DNA from: a virus
Lineage: Duplodnaviria > Heunggongvirae > Uroviricota > Caudoviricetes
Direction: 5' to 3' (one strand)
IMG/VR virus record: IMGVR_UViG_3300029467_000119
Coordinates: 1-8,450 of that record
DNA length: 8,450 nucleotides
Shown here: positions 1 through 8,450 of the stretch, in pieces
Numbering within the stretch: position 1 is the first letter of the stretch
Layout: the number at the start of each line of letters is the position of its first letter
The notes under the pieces: model-generated
Told to the model about the DNA's origin: nothing
Databases searched by the model: none
Seen by the model: the letters and a program-made list of their open reading frames with translations, nothing else
Translations under genes and position numbers: made by a program

Positions 1-483
1 ATGACGAAGAAAAAAGCACATAAACTTGGTTCAGCGACCATCGCGCTTAACAAGCGCGCCCGTCACGAATACTTTATCGAAGAAGAGTTCGAAGCGGGAC
101 TTGCCCTGCAAGGCTGGGAGGTTAAATCCCTGCGCGCAGGAAAAGCCAATATCAGCGACAGCTACGTCCTTCTGCGTGACGGAGAGGCATTTCTGTTTGG
201 CGCTAACATCACGCCAATGGCCGTGGCCTCCACGCATGTGGTGTGCGATCCTACCCGTACCCGCAAGTTACTTCTCAACCAGCGCGAACTGGACTCATTG
301 TACGGTCGCGTCAATCGAGAAGGCTATACCGTAGTGGCGCTCTCCCTATACTGGAAAAATGCCTGGTGCAAAGTGAAAATCGGCGTCGCCAAAGGTAAGA
401 AACAGCACGATAAACGTTCAGACATCAAAGAACGCGAATGGCAGGTGGATAAAGCGCGTATCATGAAAAACGCCCACCGTTAA
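1..483 (+). CDS. smpB: SsrA-binding protein SmpB (trans-translation)
   Basis: 160-aa ORF from ATG at 1 to TAA at 481-483. The translation (MTKKKAHK...[36 protein letters not shown]...) is recognised as enterobacterial SmpB, and it sits immediately upstream of ssrA as in the conserved smpB-ssrA arrangement. Confidence 0.97.
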
Positions 484-674
484 ACCTGTAGTCCAATTAT
501 TGACCAGTTCCTCACCGCGCCTCCCTCTCCGGCGGCGCGAATGAACATCTTATTGGCTATCACATCCGACACAAATGTTGCCATCCCATTGCTTAATCGA
601 ATAAAAATCAGGCTACATGGGTGCTAAATCTTTAATGATAACGCCATTGAGGCTGGTCATGGCGCTCATAAATC

Positions 675-691
675 TGGTATACTTACCGTTA
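675..691 (+). promoter_or_regulatory. Candidate ssrA promoter: extended -10 element TGgTATACT (675..683), predicted precursor start about 7 nt before the mature 5' end
   Basis: TG at 675-676, one base, then TATACT at 678-683, positioned 15-20 nt upstream of the mature tmRNA 5' end at 698. No good -35 hexamer at 17-bp spacing, which is consistent with an extended -10 promoter. Read by eye only. Confidence 0.45.
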
Positions 692-697
692 CACATT

Positions 698-1060
698 GGG
701 GCTGATTCTGGATTCGACGGGATTTGCGAAACCCAAGGTGCATGCCGAGGGGCGGTTGGCCTCGTAAAAAGCCGCAAAAAATAGTCGCAAACGACGAAAA
801 CTACGCTTTAGCAGCTTAATAACCTGCTTAGAGCCCTCTCTCCCTAGCCTCCGCTCTTAGGACGGGGATCAAGAGAGGTCAAACCCAAAAGAGATCGCGT
901 GGAAGCCCTGCCTGGGGTTGAAGCGTTAAAACTTAATCAGGCTAGTTTGTTAGTGGCGTGTCCGTCCGCAGCTGGCAAGCGAATGTAAAGACTGACTAAG
1001 CATGTAGTACCGAGGATGTAGGAATTTCGGACGCGGGTTCAACTCCCGCCAGCTCCACCA
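698..1060 (+). ncRNA. ssrA: tmRNA (SsrA, 10Sa RNA), complete 363 nt
   Basis: Begins GGGGCTGATTCTGGATTCGACGGG at 698 and ends GGTTCAACTCCCGCCAGCTCCACCA at 1060 (tRNA-Ala-like acceptor/T-arm with CCA). Contains the internal tag reading frame and matches the length of E. coli tmRNA. Confidence 0.97.
787..819 (+). other. tmRNA tag-peptide reading frame (resume codon GCA at 787; encodes ANDENYALAA; TAA at 817-819 followed by a second TAA at 820-822)
   Basis: GCA AAC GAC GAA AAC TAC GCT TTA GCA GCT TAA TAA read directly from the sequence. This is the canonical enterobacterial degradation tag. Confidence 0.92.
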
Positions 1061-1070
1061 AATAAATCAA

Positions 1071-1099
1071 GGGGTTACGTGAAAGCGTAGCCCCTTTTT
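1071..1099 (+). terminator. Intrinsic terminator downstream of ssrA
   Basis: Stem GGGGTTACG (1071-1079) pairs with CGTAGCCCC (1085-1093) with one G.U pair, loop TGAAA, followed by TTTTT (1095-1099). Confidence 0.6.
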
Positions 1100-1118
1100 C
1101 TTAGGTAGTGGCGGCAAA

Positions 1119-1157
1119 ATGGCGACAGACTTTTGCGTCCATCTTGCCTGTCGCCAT
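1119..1157. repeat. Perfect 10-bp inverted repeat ATGGCGACAG (1119-1128) / CTGTCGCCAT (1148-1157) with 19-bp spacer; candidate operator or RNA hairpin upstream of the 1184 ORF
   Basis: Read directly. Lies 26 nt upstream of the ATG at 1184. A direct repeat CCATCTTG occurs at 1139-1146 and 1154-1161. Confidence 0.4.
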
Positions 1158-1183
1158 CTTGAAATCATGCAAAGAGGTTTGAC

Positions 1184-1666
1184 ATGGAAGAACTTCACTT
1201 TGTTTACATCAATGCAAATGGTCGTATCGGTGTTCACTCAATACAGAGCATCAGTTATAGCGAAAATCACATACAGGGCATTTGTAAGAACACCGATCGA
1301 ATAAAAACCTTCCGAAAAGACCGCATTCTTAAACAATACGATTCACAAGAACAAGCCATTCAGGAATGCGCGTCATTCCTCCCCGAAAACTACTCACATC
1401 TCACTAAGCAGTCAGGTCCGAAAAAAAATACATTCGATGTGTGTTTCACCGGATTTAAGCAAGCAGATAAAGAAAGGTTGGTTGATAAGGCGAATGAACA
1501 AGGATTAACGGTAAGAACATCTGTAACCCAAAACCTTCAGATGCTCTGTTGCGGTTACAATGCAGGCCCATCAAAAGTATCGGCAGCCAGGATGAAAGGC
1601 ACTATCATCATAGATGAGCCTGGCTTTATACATTTTCTTGAAACGGGTGAGATCCCAGATGAATAA
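1184..1666 (+). CDS. Hypothetical 160-aa protein with WYL-like N-terminal half and BRCT-like C-terminal half (prophage cargo)
   Basis: ATG at 1184 preceded by AAGAGG (1172-1177); TAA at 1664-1666. Residues about 5-48 (FVYINANGRIGVHSIQSISYSENHIQGICKNTDRIKTFRKDRI) fit the WYL-domain pattern ending in R-x-F-R-x-D-R-I. Residues about 84-155 (VCFTGF...ERL...GLTV..SV.....LCCG...GPSK...A...GTIIIDE..F..L) fit a BRCT fold pattern. About 38% GC by hand count of one 60-nt line. Confidence 0.7.
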   Translation: MEELHFVYINANGRIGVHSIQSISYSENHIQGICKNTDRIKTFRKDRILKQYDSQEQAIQECASFLPENYSHLTKQSGPKKNTFDVCFTGFKQADKERLVDKANEQGLTVRTSVTQNLQMLCCGYNAGPSKVSAARMKGTIIIDEPGFIHFLETGEIPDE

Positions 1667-1694
1667 AAACCTGCCGTAGCAGGTTCTCTTTCTT
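1665..1694. terminator. Bidirectional intrinsic terminator shared by the convergent 1184 ORF (+) and ogr (-)
   Basis: Stem ACCTGC (1669-1674), loop CGTA, stem GCAGGT (1679-1684). Flanked by AAAAA (1665-1669), which gives a U-tract for the minus-strand transcript, and by TCTCTTTCTT (1685-1694) for the plus-strand transcript. Confidence 0.6.
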
Positions 1695-1911
1695 AAAAAT
1701 TCATATGGCCCTGACCACCTGGCAATGGATGTGGAGGGGCTGTGGCAATCACTGCAGGTGTCACAATAAACCGGACCACTGTTTCATGGGTAACAAAAGT
1801 GCTCCCGCAGTTAATATTTTGGCACTGGCAGTAACGCTCTTTGGTGCTTTCTGTTACTTGAAAACTGCTCCTTGTGTGCGCCGCATGACCACACTTTGGA
1901 CAATTCATCAT
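1693..1911 (-). CDS. ogr: Ogr/B-family zinc-finger late-gene transcription activator (72 aa)
   Basis: From the second in-frame ATG (1909-1911) the product is 72 aa, MMNCPKCGHAAHTRSS...KERYCQCQNINCGSTF..., with C-x2-C-x22-C-x4-C spacing (Cys 4, 7, 30, 35) typical of P2 Ogr and 186 B. The ORF track's longer 87-aa form begins 45 nt upstream at 1956. Confidence 0.88.
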   Translation of the reverse strand: MMNCPKCGHAAHTRSSFQVTESTKERYCQCQNINCGSTFVTHETVVRFIVTPAVIATAPPHPLPGGQGHMNF

Positions 1912-1979
1912 ATCCAGATCCCTACCTTTGCTATCAGAATCATTGCAATGATACACAAAATATCAATATTGAGAACCAT

Positions 1980-3080
1980 TTATTCCATTTCAAGATCACC
2001 AATTTTCACTTCAAGTTCAATACTGGTCGTAAAACCGTTATCCGGGCTGACGGTATGTGTCAGAGTCGTAATGGTCCATTCCGCATCATCTATTGGCTGT
2101 TTAAAGCCACTGACCTTCACAGGCATTTCCGTGTAGAGATCTGCCCGACCTTCCGCCAGTTGTAGCGAGAATGACGCAACACCGCGTTGCAGGCGTTCCC
2201 ACTGCATTTTCGCCGCTCGTTCGGCGTTGCTCCGGTTGGCATAAGTGCGATTAAGTACCAGCACGTTTTCATCCGTCCCCACCAGATAATCGCCCTGCTT
2301 CGCTTCCGGCTCTTTCTTCTGCTTCTTAGTTCTGCGCTTACGCTTCACCGTGGTGCTTTCTTTCTTCGCGGGTTCGCGGGTATGCAACCAGCTGGCAATG
2401 ACGCCCGTATAGGCTCCGCGATCTGCCAGGGTAAAGCGGTGACTGTCGCCGTCCTTACGCGTGATAGTGATCACCGGCAGTGGTTTACCGCTGGCGCTTT
2501 TGCCCTGTCCCTGCCGGATGAATAACAGATTGCCATTTTTCACCGACGCAATAGCACCGTACTGGCGCGCCAGTCGCATCAGAAAACTGCCGTCACTCTC
2601 ATTGGTCTGGTCTATATGTTCCACGGGTTTATCTGACAGGTCTTTACCCAATGCCATCTTCAGTTTGTGCCGTGCAGCTATTTCCTTCACCACTTCCCCA
2701 ACGGTGGTCTTGTGCCACGACTTTTCACGGCGGGTATTCAGCGTTTCACGAAAATCAGCACTTCGCGCCCGGATAGTCAGGCGGTCCGGTGCGCCAGTGT
2801 GTTCAATCTCGTCCACCGTGAATGCCCCTTTCGGGAAAAGCAGCTGCCCCTTCCAGCCCAGCGCCAGCGTAATAACCGCACCACGGCGCGGCAGCACGAT
2901 TTTTCCGTCGGCGTCGTCCAGCTCCAGATCAAGCTGGTCTGCTTCAAAGCCCCGATTGTCCGTCAGCGTCAAACTCATCAGGCGGTTATCCAGCACAGTG
3001 GTGATATCCCTGCCCTCAATACTGATGCTGAATGCGGGAGTTTTGTTGCCTTTGTTAAGCAGTTCAGAGCTGAAATTCAC
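1980..3080 (-). CDS. D: P2 gpD-like phage tail protein (366 aa)
   Basis: Long ORF whose ATG overlaps the stop of the upstream U gene in an ATGA arrangement at 3077-3080. Recognised as the gpD family by its position in the conserved T-U-D-ogr order and by overall sequence character. Confidence 0.88.
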   Translation of the reverse strand: MNFSSELLNKGNKTPAFSISIEGRDITTVLDNRLMSLTLTDNRGFEADQLDLELDDADGKIVLPRRGAVITLALGWKGQLLFPKGAFTVDEIEHTGAPDRLTIRARSADFRETLNTRREKSWHKTTVGEVVKEIAARHKLKMALGKDLSDKPVEHIDQTNESDGSFLMRLARQYGAIASVKNGNLLFIRQGQGKSASGKPLPVITITRKDGDSHRFTLADRGAYTGVIASWLHTREPAKKESTTVKRKRRTKKQKKEPEAKQGDYLVGTDENVLVLNRTYANRSNAERAAKMQWERLQRGVASFSLQLAEGRADLYTEMPVKVSGFKQPIDDAEWTITTLTHTVSPDNGFTTSIELEVKIGDLEME

Positions 3081-3562
3081 GACAGCAGCCCTCCCACCGT
3101 TTTACTGATATCGCTTAAGGCAGACGTTGCCGTGTCCTGCAGATTATTCAGTTGCGCACTGAGATCACCGAACATATCGGACAGGGATTCATCCACCCGT
3201 TTGAGCGACAGGGTGAACTCAATCCGGCGCGGCATACCGTCGCGGAAAAACTCCGTTTTAGTCTGATTCAGTCCCTCAATCACATACATGCCGTAAATCG
3301 TGCCGCTGCCTTCAATCAGGGGCCATGCTTTCCCCTGTTCTGCCATCTGCTCCAGTACCAGCAACGACAGCCTGCCGCCTGTTATCTCCGGCATAAGAAC
3401 ACCAGAAAGCGTCAGCATGTCGTTGTCCGGTCCCAGAAACTGCGTGGACGGACGTCGGTTGACCCGGCTGTTTGCCGCATGTCGCCAGCTGCGTTGATAC
3501 TGCAGTTCCTGATACGGCACAGTGCGCAGCATAAACACGTACAATCCCAGCACCATCATCAT
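3077..3562 (-). CDS. U: P2 gpU-like phage tail protein (161 aa)
   Basis: ORF MMMVLGLYVFMLRTVPYQELQYQRSWRHAANSRVNRRPST... of the size expected for gpU. Its start overlaps the gpT stop (3559-3562) and its stop overlaps the gpD start, indicating translational coupling within the late tail operon. Confidence 0.88.
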   Translation of the reverse strand: MMMVLGLYVFMLRTVPYQELQYQRSWRHAANSRVNRRPSTQFLGPDNDMLTLSGVLMPEITGGRLSLLVLEQMAEQGKAWPLIEGSGTIYGMYVIEGLNQTKTEFFRDGMPRRIEFTLSLKRVDESLSDMFGDLSAQLNNLQDTATSALSDISKTVGGLLS

Positions 3563-4944
3563 GCGTCGTATCCCCCCTGATCGCTGTAGTTACTCCTGGC
3601 TTTTGCCTTCAGCCTGCGTTCACGTTCATCAAGCTGGCGTGCCACCTCCCGCGCAATATCCTGCGCACTTTGTCCTGGCTGCGTCTGGATGATGATCTGC
3701 GTCGGTGCCTCAATCCGTTGAGCGGGCGGCACAGTGGCTGCACGACTCACCATCGCTTCGCCGCCTTTCGCGGGAAGTGCCAAAGGATGTAACGGCGGAA
3801 GCTCTGCAGGCGCGGCAGCAACGCCCATCATTCCGGCAACAACGGCAGCCAGTGCAGCTGTATTTCTCCGACTGGTCACGTTTGCCGGACCGTTGACAAT
3901 TTCAGGCCCGTTTTCACCGACAATGCCGAACTGCCCGCGCGGGATATAGCCGCCGCTGTCATACATCCCCGCAAAGCCATATCCCCATGACGGAAAACCA
4001 CCCGATGGCATCATCACTTTACCGTCTGCATTCACCGTCGCAGGTTGCTGACGCGTCACGCTTTCCGGCAGTTTCGCCTTTGCAGCCTCTTTACTGACAA
4101 TACCGAGTTTCTCCAGCAACCAGGAAACGCCGGATTTCAGGGAGTCCAACGGATGCATGACCATATTCAGCCCTTCCGCCAGTGCCTCCCCGAATCGTCG
4201 CCCCATTGCCGCTGCGCTCTGCAGTTCGGCAGAGGTCGACTTAACAGGCGTCAGCAGATCAGTAAACCAGCCCCACAACGCCTGTACTTTGTCGCCAATC
4301 CACTGGAACACGGGCTTAAGCGGTTCGAATGCAGCACTGATGGGACCTGCCGCCGCTTTGAATCCTTCCACCACGCCACCGAGAAATGCGGTGATGGGTT
4401 GCCAGTATTTCCAGACAACCAGCGCCACGCCCGCCAGTGCAGTAACCACAAGACCTATCGGACTGAGCAGAGCACCTAACAGACCAGATACGGCATACAG
4501 GGCAACGCGCAGCATCGCCAGCGGACCGGATGCCAGCACACGCAGCACCGCGCCTGCGGCAGCCAGTCCACCGCGTAGTGCTGCCAGTGGATTCATAAAC
4601 ATCACAGCAACCGCACGTAAACCGGATAATCCAGACCGCAACAGTGCAACCGGCACACCTGCTACAGTTTTCAGGACATTCCCCGTCAGTGATGCGGTGC
4701 GGCGCAAAGACGACAACGGCGCAGTAAGTAAACCCGCTGCGTTGCCCGATGAAGCAAGCCCGCGTCGCAGCAGTGCCAGTGGAGCGCCAGCTAACCAGGA
4801 CAACGCGCTGCTGGTTCGTGTTACTGCTGCCGTAACGGAAGGTAACGTTTTGATACCCAGCACAGAGAATCCCAGACGGATGACTGCCAGCGGCCCCAGC
4901 ACTGCAGCCAGCGCCACCGCTAAGGTGCCGAGGCCTACGGTACC
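3559..4944 (-). pseudogene. T: Tail tape-measure protein gpT, 5'-truncated (C-terminal ~461 codons only)
   Basis: Ala/Gly/Leu-rich open frame typical of tape-measure proteins, ending ...ERERRLKAKARSNYSDQGGYDA. The frame is open from the stop at 3559-3561 up to position 4944 and is closed by an in-frame stop at 4945-4947. No ATG is present; the ORF track used GTG at 4915-4917. The length is roughly half that expected for P2-family gpT, recalled as about 800 aa. GC about 75% by hand count of one 60-nt line. Confidence 0.8.
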
Positions 4945-5201
4945 TCATTAATCGGTACACATGGCAGGCAGTGAATCTGTGCCAGAAAACCATCTATCAG
5001 CGTTGAATCTTCAGTCAGATCGGTAAGCAGCCAGATTTCTGGCGCATTGAGCTGATGCGGTTGATCTGGGTTGAGTTTGTTTCGCAGAGTCTGGACATTT
5101 ATTCCTGCACGTTCTGCCAGCTTCGCCATATTGTGACGTAGGGCAAAAGCTCTACAGGCTTCATCAAAATGCGGATGTTTGGAAATCTTATAATCAAACA
5201 T
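4935..5201 (-). CDS. cII: 186-type CII-family regulator, probable N-terminal fragment (88 aa, HTH retained), 3'-truncated at the deletion junction
   Basis: ATG at 5199-5201 preceded by AAGGGGG. The product MFDYKISKHPHFDEACRAFALRHNMAKLAERAGINVQTLRNKLNP... matches the N-terminal half of phage regulatory CII-family proteins, which I recall as about 170 aa. The ORF ends ...PINEVP* exactly where the gpT frame begins. Downstream of apl, as in phage 186. Confidence 0.65.
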   Translation of the reverse strand: MFDYKISKHPHFDEACRAFALRHNMAKLAERAGINVQTLRNKLNPDQPHQLNAPEIWLLTDLTEDSTLIDGFLAQIHCLPCVPINEVP

Positions 5202-5233
5202 GCGGCCCCCTTAGAAAGGTCTCATAATTGAAC

Positions 5234-5482
5234 TTAGTCACCAACGATGACATTAAAGTTGAAATTGGATTGGCCCATTTTTTTCCTGACTTGTTCCTTT
5301 TTGTACTCAAGGTAACGTATACATACTCTGTCTTTCGATTTTTCCTTTTTTTCCAAAAACTTAGCAAGTTTACCATTGTGAATCATTTGATATACCGAAC
5401 CACGAGATCGGCCTTCCCATTCCGCGAACTCTGCAGGGGTCGCCATCACTTTTGGTACACGAATTGAAATGTCGTTGCTCAT
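5234..5482 (-). CDS. Apl/Cox-like excisionase and transcriptional regulator (82 aa)
   Basis: Small ORF transcribed divergently from the CI gene, the position of apl in 186 and cox in P2. The segment TPAEFAEWEGRSRGSVYQMIHNGKLA resembles the Cox DNA-binding region. ATG at 5480-5482, TAA at 5234-5236. Confidence 0.7.
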   Translation of the reverse strand: MSNDISIRVPKVMATPAEFAEWEGRSRGSVYQMIHNGKLAKFLEKKEKSKDRVCIRYLEYKKEQVRKKMGQSNFNFNVIVGD

Positions 5483-5603
5483 AGTGCAGTATCTCTTACT
5501 TTGTGTGCGTTTTAGTTCGTTTTAGCTCGTCTCTTAAAATCTCACATCAAGAGACATGAAGACATTACGATCTTGATTCAAGATTGTCAAATGGAGATTA
5601 CCA
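5483..5603. promoter_or_regulatory. Divergent lysis/lysogeny switch region between apl and CI (presumed pR/pL and operators)
   Basis: 121-bp intergenic region containing a tandem 10-bp repeat TTTAGTTCGT/TTTAGCTCGT (5511-5530), direct GACAT repeats (5553-5557 and 5561-5565) and a 15-bp palindrome ATCTTGATTCAAGAT (5570-5584) about 20 bp upstream of the CI start codon. Exact promoter hexamers were not confidently assigned. Confidence 0.5.
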
Positions 5604-6236
5604 ATGTTAAACATCAGAATGGGTTCCGATACGGGAGGTAAGGCAGCTATTGAGAGGCTGCTTGAGGCTTATGGATTCACAACTAAGCAGGCATTAAGCG
5701 AGCATCTGAATGTCTCAAAAAGCACTATGGCAAACAGAGTGTTACGTGATAGCTTTCCTGCTGACTGGATAATTCAGTGCGCACTAGAAACTGGTGTTTC
5801 GTTGCTTTGGTTAGCAACAGGACAGGGAAGCATGAAAGAAGAATGTGAGCCTGAAAAAAGTTCTCATAATGAGAACAAACTAGCGATTAGACCGTTATCC
5901 AAACTCGTAACTCCATCTATTCCTAAAGGAACCTTGGAGAATGGAAAACTCCGTATTGATGAAAAGATTTTTCTAGACCACAGCATATTACCTGCACATT
6001 ATGAAGAATCGATGTTCTTAGAAACCCCTACTGATTGTTATCTCATCGATAAATCAGTTAAACAAGTCAGCAATGGATTCTGGCTTATCAATATTGATGG
6101 AATGATTATTATTGCAAAAATCATGCGGATTCCCGGCAATAAGATTGTAGTAAATCAAGATGAAGCGTCTTTCGAGTGCTCTGCTGATGATGTGGAAGTT
6201 ATTGGGCGCGCAGTCAAAGTAATAAAGAGTATCTAA
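5604..6236 (+). CDS. cI: Phage 186-type CI immunity repressor (210 aa)
   Basis: ATG at 5604 with GGAGA 5 nt upstream. The N-terminal motif TKQALSEHLNVSKSTMANRVLRDSFPADWIIQCALETGVSLLWLATGQG is characteristic of the phage CI-repressor HTH domain family. The stop at 6234-6236 is followed 2 nt later by the int start, giving a CI-int operon as in 186. Confidence 0.85.
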   Translation: MLNIRMGSDTGGKAAIERLLEAYGFTTKQALSEHLNVSKSTMANRVLRDSFPADWIIQCALETGVSLLWLATGQGSMKEECEPEKSSHNENKLAIRPLSKLVTPSIPKGTLENGKLRIDEKIFLDHSILPAHYEESMFLETPTDCYLIDKSVKQVSNGFWLINIDGMIIIAKIMRIPGNKIVVNQDEASFECSADDVEVIGRAVKVIKSI

Positions 6237-6238
6237 AC

Positions 6239-7255
6239 ATGACTGTCAGAAAACAGCCAAACGGTAAATGGTTGTGTGAGTGCTATCCCAATGGACGCAA
6301 TGGCAAACGCGTACGTAAGCAATTTGCTACGAAAGGCGAAGCCATTGCGTTTGAAAGCTTCACTATGGAAGAGGTGAACAAAAAACCGTGGTTAGGTGAA
6401 AAGGATGATCGGCGGCACCTGTCAGAATTAATTGAGCTGTGGTATTCCCTGTATGGTCGAACTCTCGCTGACCCCAAGCGTTTAATGGCGAAATTAAAAA
6501 TCATTTGTGGTGGACTTGGTGATCCCATAGCCTCTGAATTGACAGCAGGTGATTTCACTAAGTATCGGGAAGCGCGACTAAAAGGTGACGTTAAAAACAT
6601 TGATGGTGTGTTTATGTCGCCGGTTAAGCCTCGAACAGTAAACCTTGAACAACGCAATCTATCATCAGTTTTTGGAACTTTAAAAAAATTAGGCCACTGG
6701 TCCGCCCCCAACCCACTCGCCGGTCTACCAACATTTAAAATTGCAGAGGGCGAACTGGCATTTCTGACACAGGAAGAAATAAAACGCTTGCTGAATGCCT
6801 GTGCTGATTCTCAAAATCCCAGCCTACTTTTGATTGCAAAAATATGCTTAGCCACAGGCGCGCGCTGGAGTGAAGCCGAAAACCTGCAGGGTCATCAGTT
6901 ATCAAAATACCGTATAACTTATACCAAGACAAAGGGCAAGAAAAACCGAACCGTACCTATTTCTCAGGAACTGTACAACGAACTCCCCAAAAAACGAGGG
7001 AAGTTATTCACACCATGCAGAAAAGCCTTTGAACGGGCGGTAAAACGGGCCGGTATCGAACTACCGGAAGGCCAATGCACCCACGTCCTGCGCCATACAT
7101 TTGCCAGCCACTTTATGATGAATGGCGGAAACATACTGGTGCTGCGCGATATTCTAGGACATGCGGATATAAAAATGACGATGATCTACGCTCATTTTTC
7201 TCCAGATCATTTAGAAGACGCGGTGACTAAAAATCCACTAAATTTATTAAAGTGA
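6239..7255 (+). CDS. int: P2-type tyrosine integrase (338 aa)
   Basis: N-terminus ...NGKRVRKQFATKGEAIAFE... and a C-terminal catalytic region with GARWSE (Arg), HVLRHTF (His-x-x-Arg) and MIYAHF (Tyr), typical of P2/186 integrases. Confidence 0.95.
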   Translation: MTVRKQPNGKWLCECYPNGRNGKRVRKQFATKGEAIAFESFTMEEVNKKPWLGEKDDRRHLSELIELWYSLYGRTLADPKRLMAKLKIICGGLGDPIASELTAGDFTKYREARLKGDVKNIDGVFMSPVKPRTVNLEQRNLSSVFGTLKKLGHWSAPNPLAGLPTFKIAEGELAFLTQEEIKRLLNACADSQNPSLLLIAKICLATGARWSEAENLQGHQLSKYRITYTKTKGKKNRTVPISQELYNELPKKRGKLFTPCRKAFERAVKRAGIELPEGQCTHVLRHTFASHFMMNGGNILVLRDILGHADIKMTMIYAHFSPDHLEDAVTKNPLNLLK

Positions 7256-7262
7256 GAAAAGA

Positions 7263-8450
7263 ATGCAACAGGATAGAGATGTTGAAACTCAGTTAAATAT
7301 GATGCTGAATGAGTTGTATAGTAATGAGGATTTAATGCCACCTTTTAAACCTAAAGGTGACATCGTTTCTGATTTTAACTCTCGCTGCAATGAATACCTT
7401 AATTTTTTAAATGAATTTAAAATTAAAAACAAAACCAGGCTTAATATTGATCTGCTAATAAAGCGAGTATTAAAAATACAACTAGGAATAACCGAGAGCC
7501 TTCAAGAGTTTTTAGCGGGTGACATCAAAGAGGCATATGATATTTTCGATGACACTTTTTCAGACAATCTTATTAATAAGCATATTCAAAGAATCACAAT
7601 CCCCCTTAAGGAAATATGTAATTATGATCAACCACTCTATAGAGTACGCAAATCAGACAAGCCATTACTTAACAGGGAAGATATTTTCCATATACCATTT
7701 TCCTGCCGACACCTTGTCAGTGCTCAACGTTACTCAGTAGCGGGACTCCCCTGTTTATATCTAGGTTCATCTCTATATGTATGCTGGCAAGAAATGGACA
7801 AACCAGATTTTGATAAACTATATATATCCTCATTCATATCACAAGATACTAAATCTAAAATCCTTAACTTTGTTCCACAACTGAAAACCTCAATCAATAC
7901 TAAAGAATGGAGCAGCGAAGAGTTAAGAACAAATAATTATATCAAAGCTTCGTATTTGGTTCTCTGGCCCTTAATTTTCTCATGTAGCTATATAAAAACA
8001 CATGAAAACTCAAGTTTTACGCAAGAATATATAATACCTAATTTACTCATGCAGTGGATAAGCACACGGGGTCAATCTCCAATATCTGGCATAGCCTATT
8101 CATCAACGAAAATGAAAAAAAGTCTAGGTTCAAAACTTTCAATAAATGTTGTATTACCCCCCAAAGCCACATATAGACAAACGACTCAAAAAGATTTTTG
8201 CCCAAGGTTGTCATCATTATTTGATTTTACTCCACCTGTTTCATGGCAGGTTTTAAAAACATTAGAGTATCAGAATGCAATCCCTAAAACATCTGAGCAG
8301 GGGAAAGCTATCAGATTTCTTGCTCGAAAAGAAAGGCTATCTGGCATTACTGATTTTGATAGTGACATAATCAGACTTTACCCATTAACTGACTTTTATA
8401 AACTGGAAGTTTGTATGGATCGCTTATTTGATTATTCACCTATTAGATAG
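7263..8450 (+). CDS. Hypothetical 395-aa protein with a central RES-like (NAD+-targeting toxin-type) domain; AT-rich prophage cargo
   Basis: ATG at 7263, 7 nt after the int stop, with a purine-rich GAGAAAAG upstream; TAG at 8448-8450. About 33% GC by hand count of two 60-nt lines. Residues 155-177 (QRYSVAGLPCLYLGSSLYVCWQE) and 274-299 (ISGIAYSSTKMKKSLGSKLSINVVLP) resemble the conserved Arg, Glu and Ser motifs of RES domains: Arg156 codon 7728-7730, Glu177 codon 7791-7793, Ser280 codon 8100-8102. The flanking N-terminal (~115 aa) and C-terminal (~95 aa) regions are unassigned. Confidence 0.8.
   Translation: MQQDRDVETQLNMMLNELYSNEDLMPPFKPKGDIVSDFNSRCNEYLNFLNEFKIKNKTRLNIDLLIKRVLKIQLGITESLQEFLAGDIKEAYDIFDDTFSDNLINKHIQRITIPLKEICNYDQPLYRVRKSDKPLLNREDIFHIPFSCRHLVSAQRYSVAGLPCLYLGSSLYVCWQEMDKPDFDKLYISSFISQDTKSKILNFVPQLKTSINTKEWSSEELRTNNYIKASYLVLWPLIFSCSYIKTHENSSFTQEYIIPNLLMQWISTRGQSPISGIAYSSTKMKKSLGSKLSINVVLPPKATYRQTTQKDFCPRLSSLFDFTPPVSWQVLKTLEYQNAIPKTSEQGKAIRFLARKERLSGITDFDSDIIRLYPLTDFYKLEVCMDRLFDYSPIR

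What the first reader, a model, noticed from the sequence alone, without database searches (positions are those of the whole stretch)
1061..8450. The two cargo genes would be adjacent and co-oriented across attP in the circular phage: a possible two-gene locus split by integration
If the prophage integrated through an att core at the ssrA 3' end, closing the prophage ends joins position 8450 and beyond to position 1061. The order in the phage genome would then be CI - int - 395-aa RES-like gene - attP - 160-aa WYL-BRCT gene, all on the same strand, followed by the convergent ogr. A putative toxin-like effector and a putative sensor or regulator would therefore form one contiguous att-straddling module in the excised phage, but be separated and placed under different transcriptional contexts in the lysogen. 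That could couple their stoichiometry to the integration state. This depends on the right-hand att site lying just beyond 8450, which cannot be seen in this window.
Basis: inference. Interest (0 to 1): 0.6.

Follow-up and report, generated by a model that had tools for sequence, protein, structure and literature searches.

The report
Two independent cargo genes flanking attP
The two genes really do sit side by side across the phage attachment site once the prophage circularises. But they come and go independently in related phages and are separated by a strong terminator, so they look like two unrelated accessory genes rather than one split system.

Summary
The geometry is confirmed; the functional idea is not. 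The window is a deletion remnant of a 186/P2-like prophage in E. coli ssrA.

**Geometry**
- In 7 of 8 sibling loci with the identical 395-aa gene, a 45-nt exact copy of the ssrA 3' end lies 125 nt past its stop.
- Phage Cartapus and one IMG/VR junction contig show cI-int-RES-like-attP(288 nt)-BRCT on one strand, with ogr convergent.

**Against a two-gene module**
- BRCT occurs without the RES-like gene: Yersinia phage MLG42 and E. coli 07-4299.
- The RES-like gene occurs without BRCT: Salmonella RE-2010.
- The int-att slot holds a RES-like gene in 21 of 55 scorable loci, other cargo in 19 (including a dCTP-deaminase defence gene), and nothing in 15.
- Allele identities do not co-vary (rho 0.007, p 0.41).
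- The 288-nt spacer holds Int arm sites, the core and a -19.8 kcal/mol terminator just upstream of BRCT.

**What the genes are**
- The 160-aa protein is a WYL-like beta-domain plus a BRCT domain. In distant P2-like phages it sits just downstream of cI.

Ordinary cargo in a described hotspot; moderate-to-low interest.

The parts
698..1060 (+). ssrA (tmRNA). Its 3' end is supplied by the prophage (attL).
   Evidence: ARAGORN; Rfam RF00023, 295.8 bits.
1016..1060 (+). att core: a 45-nt segment duplicated at the other prophage end.
   Evidence: An exact 45-nt direct repeat lies 125 nt after the 395-aa gene in L003-L008, L010 and L005. It is present once, between the two genes, in Cartapus and L018.
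1069..1096 (+). Intrinsic terminator supplied by the phage. It ends ssrA in the lysogen. In the circular form it would end the cI-int-RES transcript just before the BRCT gene.
   Evidence: 12-bp stem plus T-run. Free energy -19.8 kcal/mol, z -5.2. Conserved, with compensatory stem changes, across lineages whose BRCT is only 70% identical. Phage 186 is annotated with an analogous 'terminator of lysogenic operon' across attP.
1108..1128 (+). Two tandem Int arm-type sites (P' arm): GTGGCGGCAAAATGGCGACAG.
   Evidence: Nearly invariant in 8 divergent loci. A similar pair follows the RES-like stop codon on the P arm. It resembles the reverse complement of the 186 Int arm consensus YAYCGCCAYTY.
1184..1666 (+). 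160-aa protein: an N-terminal five-strand beta domain (WYL-like) plus a C-terminal BRCT domain.
1668..1685 (+). Terminator-like hairpin directly after the BRCT gene, between it and convergent ogr.
1693..1911 (-). ogr/B late-gene activator.
   Evidence: Pfam Ogr_Delta 1.3e-20; annotated as a 72-aa protein in L001.
1980..3562 (-). Tail genes D (1980-3080) and U (3077-3562).
   Evidence: Pfam Phage_GPD and Phage_P2_GpU.
3559..4917 (-). Truncated tape-measure gene T (C-terminal 452 aa only).
   Evidence: Full length is 3078 bp in L001. Window identity to L001 stops at 4942.
4941..4942 (.). Internal deletion junction of the prophage remnant.
   Evidence: Window 1-4942 is 99.7% identical to L001, and window 4941-8450 is 99.97% identical to L010.
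4935..5201 (-). Truncated cII (88 of 169 aa).
   Evidence: Pfam Phage_CP76 positions 1-80 of 146. Intact relatives encode 169 aa.
5234..5482 (-). apl/cox-like excisionase.
   Evidence: phrog_6912 and phrog_575.
5604..6236 (+). CI repressor.
   Evidence: Pfam Phage_CI_repr and Phage_CI_C.
6239..7255 (+). ssrA-specific tyrosine integrase.
   Evidence: Pfam Int_N and Phage_integrase. It is 89-100% identical in all loci that carry any RES-like allele.
7263..8450 (+). 395-aa RES/ART-fold protein with helical N- and C-terminal extensions. It occupies the variable int-att cargo slot.

Best explanation
**Overall reading.** The window is a cryptic, internally deleted 186/P2-like (Peduoviridae) prophage inserted in the 3' end of E. 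coli ssrA. The two genes are the outermost genes at its two ends, so they become neighbours across attP when the element circularises. They are best read as two independent accessory genes, not one system.

**(1) The 395-aa gene.**
- It fills a variable cargo slot between int and attP. In relatives with about 90% identical Int, this slot is empty, holds unrelated genes (including a known dCTP-deaminase defence gene and 2TM proteins), or holds one of many RES-like alleles that are only about 46-60% identical to each other.
- It starts 8 nt after int, with no terminator in between. It is therefore most likely co-transcribed with cI-int from the lysogenic promoter and made in lysogens (inferred from the 186 annotation).
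- Its core has the RES/ADP-ribosyltransferase fold.
- I infer it is a lysogen-expressed, NAD+-using effector: a single-protein abortive-infection or exclusion function. Its helical N- and C-terminal extensions would replace the separate antitoxin of classical RES systems. This mechanism is inference only.

**(2) The 160-aa WYL-like/BRCT gene.**
- It is an older, more conserved accessory gene of P2-like phages. In Mannheimia, Vibrio, Aeromonas, Hafnia, Brenneria, Rahnella and other lineages it lies directly downstream of cI in the lysogenic operon.
- Only in the enterobacterial ssrA-integrating lineage does attP fall between int and this gene.
- Its BRCT domain is closest to the DNA-end/nick-binding BRCT domains of RFC1 and LigA. 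I infer a small DNA-end or ssDNA-binding protein acting in the lysogen. The target is unknown.

**(3) What lies between them.** In the circular form the spacer holds two Int arm sites, the core, a strong terminator and two more arm sites. The terminator that serves ssrA in the lysogen would stop the cI-int-RES transcript before the BRCT gene in the phage form.
For: **Geometry:**

**Independence**
- BRCT without the RES-like gene: isolated Yersinia phage MLG42, where the order is BRCT-attP-int and Int is 91% identical.
- E. coli 07-4299 has BRCT at 99.8% nt identity but an unrelated 309-aa 2TM-like protein after int.
- RES-like gene without BRCT: Salmonella phage RE-2010, with only 79 nt between ogr and the att repeat. 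No BRCT hit was found in any Salmonella phage record.
- Phage collection: BRCT in 28 records, RES-like in 9, both only in Cartapus.
- Complete E. coli genomes: BRCT in 177, any RES-like allele detectable at DNA level in 38-42.
- Slot census among 80 loci sampled by Int: RES-like 21, other cargo 19, empty (152 nt) 15, undetermined 25. One occupant is a dCTP deaminase (PADLOC 2e-146).

**No co-variation.** Among 15 elements with both genes, Mantel rho is 0.007 (p 0.41). Each gene correlates with Int at about 0.39 (p about 0.002). Median pairwise identity is 53% for RES-like, 74% for BRCT and 92% for Int.

**Insulation.** Terminator 1069-1096, -19.8 kcal/mol, z -5.2, conserved with compensatory changes. 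Arm sites are invariant.

**Folds:**

**BRCT gene context.** It lies downstream of cI in distant Peduoviridae. No RES-like gene lies within 8 kb of 38 species-level BRCT loci.

**Precedent**
- Phage 186 has Orf69 between int and attP, and its lysogenic-operon terminator lies across attP.
- The int-att region of P2-like phages is described as a minor defence hotspot (PMC13586616).
- The cI-int interval of Vibrio P2-like phages is described as a hotspot (PMC9122126).
Against: - Both genes do co-occur in at least 12 IMG/VR contigs plus Cartapus, HH107 and the window. A facultative interaction cannot be excluded from sequence alone.
- Co-occurrence rates are lower bounds. The lists were capped at 80, many contigs are partial, and DNA searches miss divergent RES-like alleles.
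- No consensus-grade sigma-70 promoter is seen between the terminator and the BRCT start. BRCT expression may therefore depend on upstream transcription, which does differ between integrated and circular states.
- No biochemical activity, toxicity or anti-phage effect has been shown for either protein. PADLOC has no model for the RES-like protein.
- The window's own protein does not reach the Pfam RES or WYL thresholds.
Confidence: 0.72

Rival explanations
1. The RES-like protein (toxin/effector) and the WYL-BRCT protein (sensor, regulator or neutraliser) form one functional two-gene system. It is contiguous only in the circular phage and split by integration, so their ratio reports the integration state.
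For: - They are adjacent and co-oriented across attP in Cartapus and L018.
- They co-occur in at least 15 elements.
- The RES-like gene lacks the usual upstream antitoxin.
- WYL domains are ligand sensors attached to defence effectors, and WYL-BRCT fusions have been noted (PMC4012209).
- BRCT has no obvious promoter of its own.
Against: - Functional isolated phages carry only one of the two genes.
- The same BRCT allele is paired with RES-like alleles 46-100% identical and with unrelated or no cargo.
- Mantel rho is 0.007.
- A strong conserved terminator and a complete attP lie between them.
- In most lineages BRCT sits next to cI with no RES-like gene within 8 kb.
- The RES-like family is abundant in Salmonella Fels-2/SopE-phi-type prophages, and no BRCT homologue was found in any Salmonella phage record.
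Confidence: 0.06
2. An integration-dependent expression switch that concerns BRCT alone. BRCT was ancestrally the gene after cI and has been displaced across attP. It lacks a promoter, and in lysogens it is expressed by read-through from the very strongly transcribed host ssrA. In the circular form it receives only read-through from the cI-int(-RES) transcript. The RES-like gene is an unrelated passenger.
For: - BRCT lies immediately downstream of cI in many distant P2-like phages.
- No promoter reaching the scan threshold lies between terminator and start codon, and this 45-nt stretch is the least conserved part of the spacer.
- Phage 186 shows the same design, with the lysogenic operon's terminator lying across attP.
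Against: - The terminator is strong (-19.8 kcal/mol plus a U-run), so read-through may be negligible.
- A weak promoter (8 of 12 matches by eye) is possible in the lineage with 70% identical BRCT.
- There are no expression data.
Confidence: 0.2
3. The RES-like protein is not a defence or abortive-infection toxin. It would instead serve the phage itself, for example as a counter-defence or host-takeover ADP-ribosyltransferase, or as a lysogenic-conversion factor. Or it may be catalytically inactive.
For: - ART-fold enzymes are used by phages for host takeover (general knowledge; review PMC9503650).
- There is no PADLOC model and no Pfam-threshold RES hit.
- Similarity to solved RES toxins is only 11-14%.
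Against: - It occupies a slot that also holds a known defence gene, and that slot is described as a defence hotspot.
- It lies in the lysogenic rather than the lytic transcription unit.
- Hypervariability next to a conserved Int is typical of defence cargo.
- Many residues around the RES core are invariant across the family, including R156, Y157, S158, E177 and S189.
Confidence: 0.2

Closest known systems
Coliphage 186 attP region (B - attP - orf69 - int - cI)
   Same: - The gene order is the same: ogr/B, attP, a small cargo position, int, cI.
- The core lies in the 3' end of a tRNA-like gene.
- Int arm-type sites sit on both sides of the core.
- The terminator of the lysogenic operon lies across attP.
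   Different: - 186 integrates in ileY, not ssrA.
- Its slot holds the 83-aa Orf69, not a RES-like gene.
- It has no gene between B and attP, where this lineage carries BRCT.
int-att and cI-int defence hotspots of P2-like phages (PMC13586616; PMC9122126)
   Same: - Gene content varies between conserved flanks next to int.
- The slot contains known defence genes, such as the dCTP deaminase in L185.
   Different: The RES-like family is not a recognised defence system: PADLOC has no model for it. No activity has been tested.
RES-domain toxins of type II toxin-antitoxin systems (MbcT/MbcA, Res/Xre, ParT/ParS, NatT/NatR)
   Different: - The protein is twice as long, with helical extensions of about 120 aa (N-terminal) and about 100 aa (C-terminal).
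- There is no upstream Xre/DUF2384 antitoxin; the upstream gene is int.
- It scores below the Pfam threshold and is only 11-14% identical to the solved toxins.
Lambda int-sib retroregulation
   Same: A cis element that lies downstream of int only in the non-integrated genome, because attP separates the two. Integration therefore changes the 3' context of the int transcript (textbook knowledge, not tested here).
   Different: - The element across attP here is an ordinary terminator that is also needed for ssrA.
- No RNase III site was examined, and no effect on either cargo gene has been shown.
SopE-phi / Fels-2 / RE-2010 ssrA-integrating Salmonella phages
   Same: The same Int type and ssrA att site. 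A RES-like gene of about 45% identity lies directly after int.
   Different: They lack the BRCT gene; ogr is 79 nt from the att repeat.

Membership tests
RES domain (Pfam PF08808) / RES toxins | RES/ADP-ribosyltransferase fold. | tested here: met
RES domain (Pfam PF08808) / RES toxins | Sequence match to the Pfam RES model at its gathering score. | tested here: not met
   The window protein has no hit at E<=1. 25 of 38 relatives hit only weakly, best E 0.015. A PDB sequence-profile search finds no RES toxin.
RES domain (Pfam PF08808) / RES toxins | Conserved catalytic Arg, Glu and Ser. | tested here: inconclusive
   R156, E177 and S189 are invariant in 38 relatives. They were not mapped residue by residue onto a solved active site.
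RES-Xre type II toxin-antitoxin system | A cognate antitoxin gene immediately upstream in the same operon. | tested here: not met
   The upstream gene is int, ending 8 nt before the start. No Xre/DUF2384 match was found in the protein or its relatives.
RES-Xre type II toxin-antitoxin system | NAD+ degradation or ADP-ribosylation causing growth arrest. | not testable with these tools
   Needs an enzyme assay and a toxicity assay.
   MLG42 and 07-4299 have BRCT only. RE-2010 has the RES-like gene only. The slot census is 21 RES-like, 19 other and 15 empty.
   Mantel rho 0.007, p 0.41, n=15. BRCT at 98-99% identity is paired with RES-like alleles of 46, 56, 59 and 100% identity.
   A strong conserved terminator lies between them in the circular form. 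No expression data are available.
BRCT domain | BRCT fold and sequence profile. | tested here: met
WYL domain | Match to the WYL profile, or an Sm-like beta-barrel with the WYL motif. | tested here: inconclusive
   The window protein gives only a PADLOC WYL hit at E 0.027. 8 of 36 relatives match Pfam WYL, best 1.5e-5. The model shows a five-strand beta domain at residues 3-52. No fold comparison of that domain alone was possible.
P2/186-type attP | A core identical to the 3' end of a tRNA-like host gene, duplicated at both prophage ends. | tested here: met
   A 45-nt exact repeat in 7 of 8 sibling loci and in L005.
P2/186-type attP | Int arm-type sites on both arms. | tested here: met
   Tandem TGGCG-type sites on both sides of the core, invariant across lineages and similar to the 186 consensus. 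Binding was not tested.
Phage defence hotspot (int-att slot) | Variable cargo between conserved flanks, including known defence genes. | tested here: met
   Described in PMC13586616.
Phage defence hotspot (int-att slot) | The gene in question protects against phage. | not testable with these tools
   Needs plaque assays.

The most novel reading that the evidence does not exclude
Integration into ssrA rewires an ancestral lysogenic operon.
- The promoter-less WYL-BRCT gene, normally the gene after cI, would be driven in the lysogen by read-through from host ssrA. In the circular form it would be driven by the cI-int-RES transcript.
- The DNA-end/ssDNA-sensing BRCT protein would modulate the RES-type NAD+-using effector whenever both are present.
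- Together they would give an att-straddling, integration-state-sensitive immunity or addiction circuit.
Probability: 0.07. Interest if true: 0.6.

Novelty: new member of a known kind. Interest (0 to 1): 0.3.

Why it matters
**Practical points**
- Both ends of ssrA-integrating P2-like prophages carry accessory genes right up against attP. Prophage-boundary callers that stop at int or ogr will miss them.
- The int-att slot is a compact, well-delimited place to mine candidate defence genes.
- The RES-like family is widespread in Enterobacterales prophages. One Salmonella cluster is counted on 1000 contigs, which is the tool's counting limit. It would be an antitoxin-less, single-polypeptide RES effector if it is active.
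- The WYL-like/BRCT family is a conserved, uncharacterised companion of cI across Peduoviridae.

**Limits**
Neither point needs, or supports, a split two-gene system. If the att-straddling coupling were nevertheless real, it would resemble lambda int-sib logic, but acting on proteins.

Tried and rejected
- **Source contig.** Not recovered. None of 10 loci contained the window, so the att duplicate is inferred from sibling loci.
- **PADLOC and NCBIfam.** Neither has a model for the 395-aa protein.
- **PDB sequence-profile search for the RES-like family.** It gave only chance hits to designed helical proteins.
- **Pfam Plasmod_dom_1 hit.** It covers residues 89-118 (E 1.8e-5, just above the cutoff). 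I set it aside as compositional, because the gene is AT-rich and the hit lies in a helical stretch.
- **Promoter scans.** None reached threshold upstream of BRCT. The hits inside int and the RES-like gene are at chance level, 11 found against 8.8 expected.
- **Rfam.** Only tmRNA was found.
- **Literature searches.** Searches for RES + P2-like, BRCT + WYL + phage, BRCT + anti-phage and RES + anti-phage found no characterisation of either family.
- **afdb50 fold library.** Unavailable.
- **Contig-level cross-tabulation of BRCT against slot content.** Only qualitative, because the lists were capped at 80 and many contigs are partial.
- **Fused antitoxin idea.** I considered whether the N-terminal helical extension is a fused MbcA/Xre-like antitoxin. 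No sequence or fold evidence was obtained, so it stays an inference.

Full report
**What is in the window**

ORF listing, Pfam, ARAGORN and Rfam give the layout:
- smpB at 1-483 and ssrA at 698-1060
- a 160-aa ORF at 1184-1666 (+)
- ogr, D, U and a truncated tape-measure gene T on the minus strand
- a truncated cII and apl on the minus strand
- cI (5604-6236), int (6239-7255) and a 395-aa ORF (7263-8450) on the plus strand

This is the two ends of a 186/P2-like prophage with its middle removed. Window 1-4942 is 99.7% identical to an intact prophage at ssrA in E. coli 07-4299. Window 4941-8450 is 99.97% identical to the int end of intact prophages elsewhere, so the deletion junction is at 4941/4942. 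The window therefore encodes no replication, head or lysis functions. At best it could excise as a dead circle.

**Checking the observation**

The right-hand att site lies outside the window, and the exact source contig was not among those read. Eight contigs encode the identical 395-aa protein. In seven of them, a 45-nt exact copy of window 1016-1060 (the ssrA 3' end) begins 125 nt after the stop codon. L005, an independently deleted remnant, shows both copies 6037 nt apart.

The predicted circular order is seen directly. In the virion genome of Escherichia phage Cartapus the order on one strand is cI, int, a 401-aa RES-like gene, a 288-nt gap containing the core, and the BRCT gene. ogr is convergent. 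IMG/VR contig 2609459831_000011 holds the same junction. The observation, and the prediction about the att duplicate, are confirmed.

**What fills the 288 nt between the two genes**

Reading from the RES-like stop codon, the spacer contains:
- two tandem TGGCG-type repeats
- an AT-rich stretch
- the 45-nt core
- a 12-bp-stem terminator (window 1069-1096; -19.8 kcal/mol, z -5.2, followed by UUUUUCUU)
- two more tandem repeats (GTGGCGGCAAAATGGCGACAG, 1108-1128)
- about 55 poorly conserved nucleotides, a ribosome-binding site and the BRCT start codon

The repeats resemble the Int arm-type consensus annotated for phage 186. Phage 186 likewise has arm sites on both sides of attP and a 'terminator of lysogenic operon' across attP from int. 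The terminator and arm sites are conserved, with compensatory stem changes, in lineages whose BRCT protein is only 70% identical. The spacer is thus a complete attP plus the terminator the phage must supply to ssrA. In the circular form that terminator stands between the RES-like gene and BRCT.

**What the two proteins are**

**Are they one system?**

Four tests say no.

1. *Each gene occurs without the other in functional phages.*
   - Yersinia phage MLG42 (Int 91% identical, BRCT 72%) has BRCT-attP-int with nothing in the slot.
   - Salmonella phage RE-2010 has the RES-like gene after int, but only 79 nt between ogr and the att repeat.
   - Among 50,697 phage records, BRCT is in 28 and RES-like in 9. 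Both occur only in Cartapus.
2. *The slot after int is variable while BRCT stays constant.*
   - E. coli 07-4299 has a 99.8% identical BRCT gene but an unrelated 309-aa 2TM-like protein after int.
   - Eighty IMG/VR loci were sampled by Int (87-100% identity), and 55 were scorable. Of these, 21 hold a RES-like gene, 19 hold other cargo and 15 are empty, with 152 nt from int to the core.
   - One 'other' occupant is a dCTP-deaminase defence gene (PADLOC 2e-146).
   - In 5,426 complete E. coli genomes, BRCT is in 177. A RES-like allele is detectable at DNA level in 38-42, which is a lower bound.
3. *There is no co-variation.* In 15 elements with both genes, pairwise identities of BRCT and RES-like are uncorrelated (Spearman 0.007, Mantel p 0.41). 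Each correlates with Int at about 0.39 (p about 0.002). BRCT alleles of 98-99% identity are paired with RES-like alleles of 46, 56, 59 and 100% identity. The 96-100% RES-like allele is paired with both 98% and 72% BRCT.
4. *Outside this lineage the BRCT gene has a different, consistent context.*
   - It lies directly downstream of cI in Mannheimia PHL101, Vibrio PV94 (cI-BRCT-x-int), Hafnia, Brenneria, Aeromonas, Rahnella and others.
   - No RES-like gene lies within 8 kb of any of 38 species-level loci.

**Best reading**

The RES-like gene is a hypervariable cargo allele. Its median pairwise identity is 53%, next to an Int at 92%, and it is 31-35% GC. It sits in the int-att slot, which a 2026 survey describes as a minor defence hotspot of P2-like phages (PMC13586616). 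In the archetype 186 that position holds Orf69. It is almost certainly read with cI-int in lysogens. I infer a single-polypeptide NAD+-using effector whose helical extensions replace a separate antitoxin, but nothing about its activity has been shown.

The BRCT gene is an older lysogenic-operon companion of cI. In the ssrA-integrating enterobacterial lineage it has ended up on the far side of attP. I infer that it binds DNA ends, nicks or ssDNA in the lysogen.

What integration really splits is the phage's leftward (lysogenic) transcription unit from its terminator, as in 186. It does not split a RES-BRCT pair.

**What remains open**

No consensus-grade promoter precedes BRCT. Its expression could therefore depend on read-through from ssrA in the lysogen, or from the lysogenic operon in the circle. 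This is a real, testable integration-state effect, but it concerns BRCT alone. A facultative interaction where both genes are present cannot be excluded from sequence, and I put it at well under 10%.

**Verdict**

This is a new member of a known kind, namely cargo genes hugging attP of a P2-like prophage. Interest is about 0.3.

Noticed in passing
window 3559-5201 (junction 4941/4942); L002 12621-12623; L005 about 7984-8009; L021/L168: At least three differently deleted remnants of ssrA prophages exist. All keep BRCT-ogr-D-U at one end and apl-cI-int-RES-like at the other. HH107 keeps less of T but more of cII than the window, so the deletions are not nested and arose independently. Remnants that lost an end would not have been found, so ascertainment bias is likely.
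   Followed up: partly
L185 5008-7027 (minus strand); L180, L231, L235, L241 slots; L176 5790-6719: Other occupants of the int-att slot were seen. One is a 585-aa dCTP-deaminase defence protein (PADLOC 2e-146). Another is a recurrent family of about 350-aa membrane proteins sharing the motif SKFPLLLLASxVPLAxIVNNIHRTIQTE; the 309-aa protein in E. coli 07-4299 gives a weak PADLOC '2TM effector' hit. Also seen were a 513-aa protein with no hits, a roughly 220-aa TM protein, and a transposase-like ORF (not scanned).
   Followed up: partly
L005 11542-16203; L006 11540-12781; L098, L105, L113, L123, L170 downstream of the core: Beyond the prophage's far att copy, many genomes carry a second island with its own P4/CP4-57-type integrase. 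In L005 this island also has Psu and Ogr/Delta genes (a P4-like satellite). L123 has a second downstream core copy. ssrA thus carries tandem mobile elements that reuse the same core.
   Followed up: no
L003-L010 positions 1-2300; L176 14910-17259: The known P2 hotspot between replication gene A and portal gene Q differs in almost every sibling prophage. Contents include ThsB-type TIR plus a partner, DUF4145, AAA+ with an S8 peptidase, phosphoribosyltransferase with DprA-like, and TIGR04255 with XRE. All of these siblings carry the identical 395-aa gene.
   Followed up: no
L008 11882-14944: One contig carrying the identical 395-aa allele is flanked by fljA, fljB and hin-like genes and by an iro-like cluster. 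That points to Salmonella, so this exact allele appears to be shared between E. coli and Salmonella prophages.
   Followed up: no
window 7527-7616 (protein residues 89-118): A Pfam Plasmod_dom_1 hit scores just above its gathering score (25.4 vs 23.9 bits). It is probably a compositional artefact of an AT-rich helical segment. Six of 38 relatives show it.
   Followed up: partly
phage collection hits H62-H63 (Bacillus phage SPbeta yopC): The RES-like family extends to SPbeta YopC: 30% identity over 78% of the query, E 3e-33. The long-form RES architecture is therefore not confined to P2-like phages.
   Followed up: no
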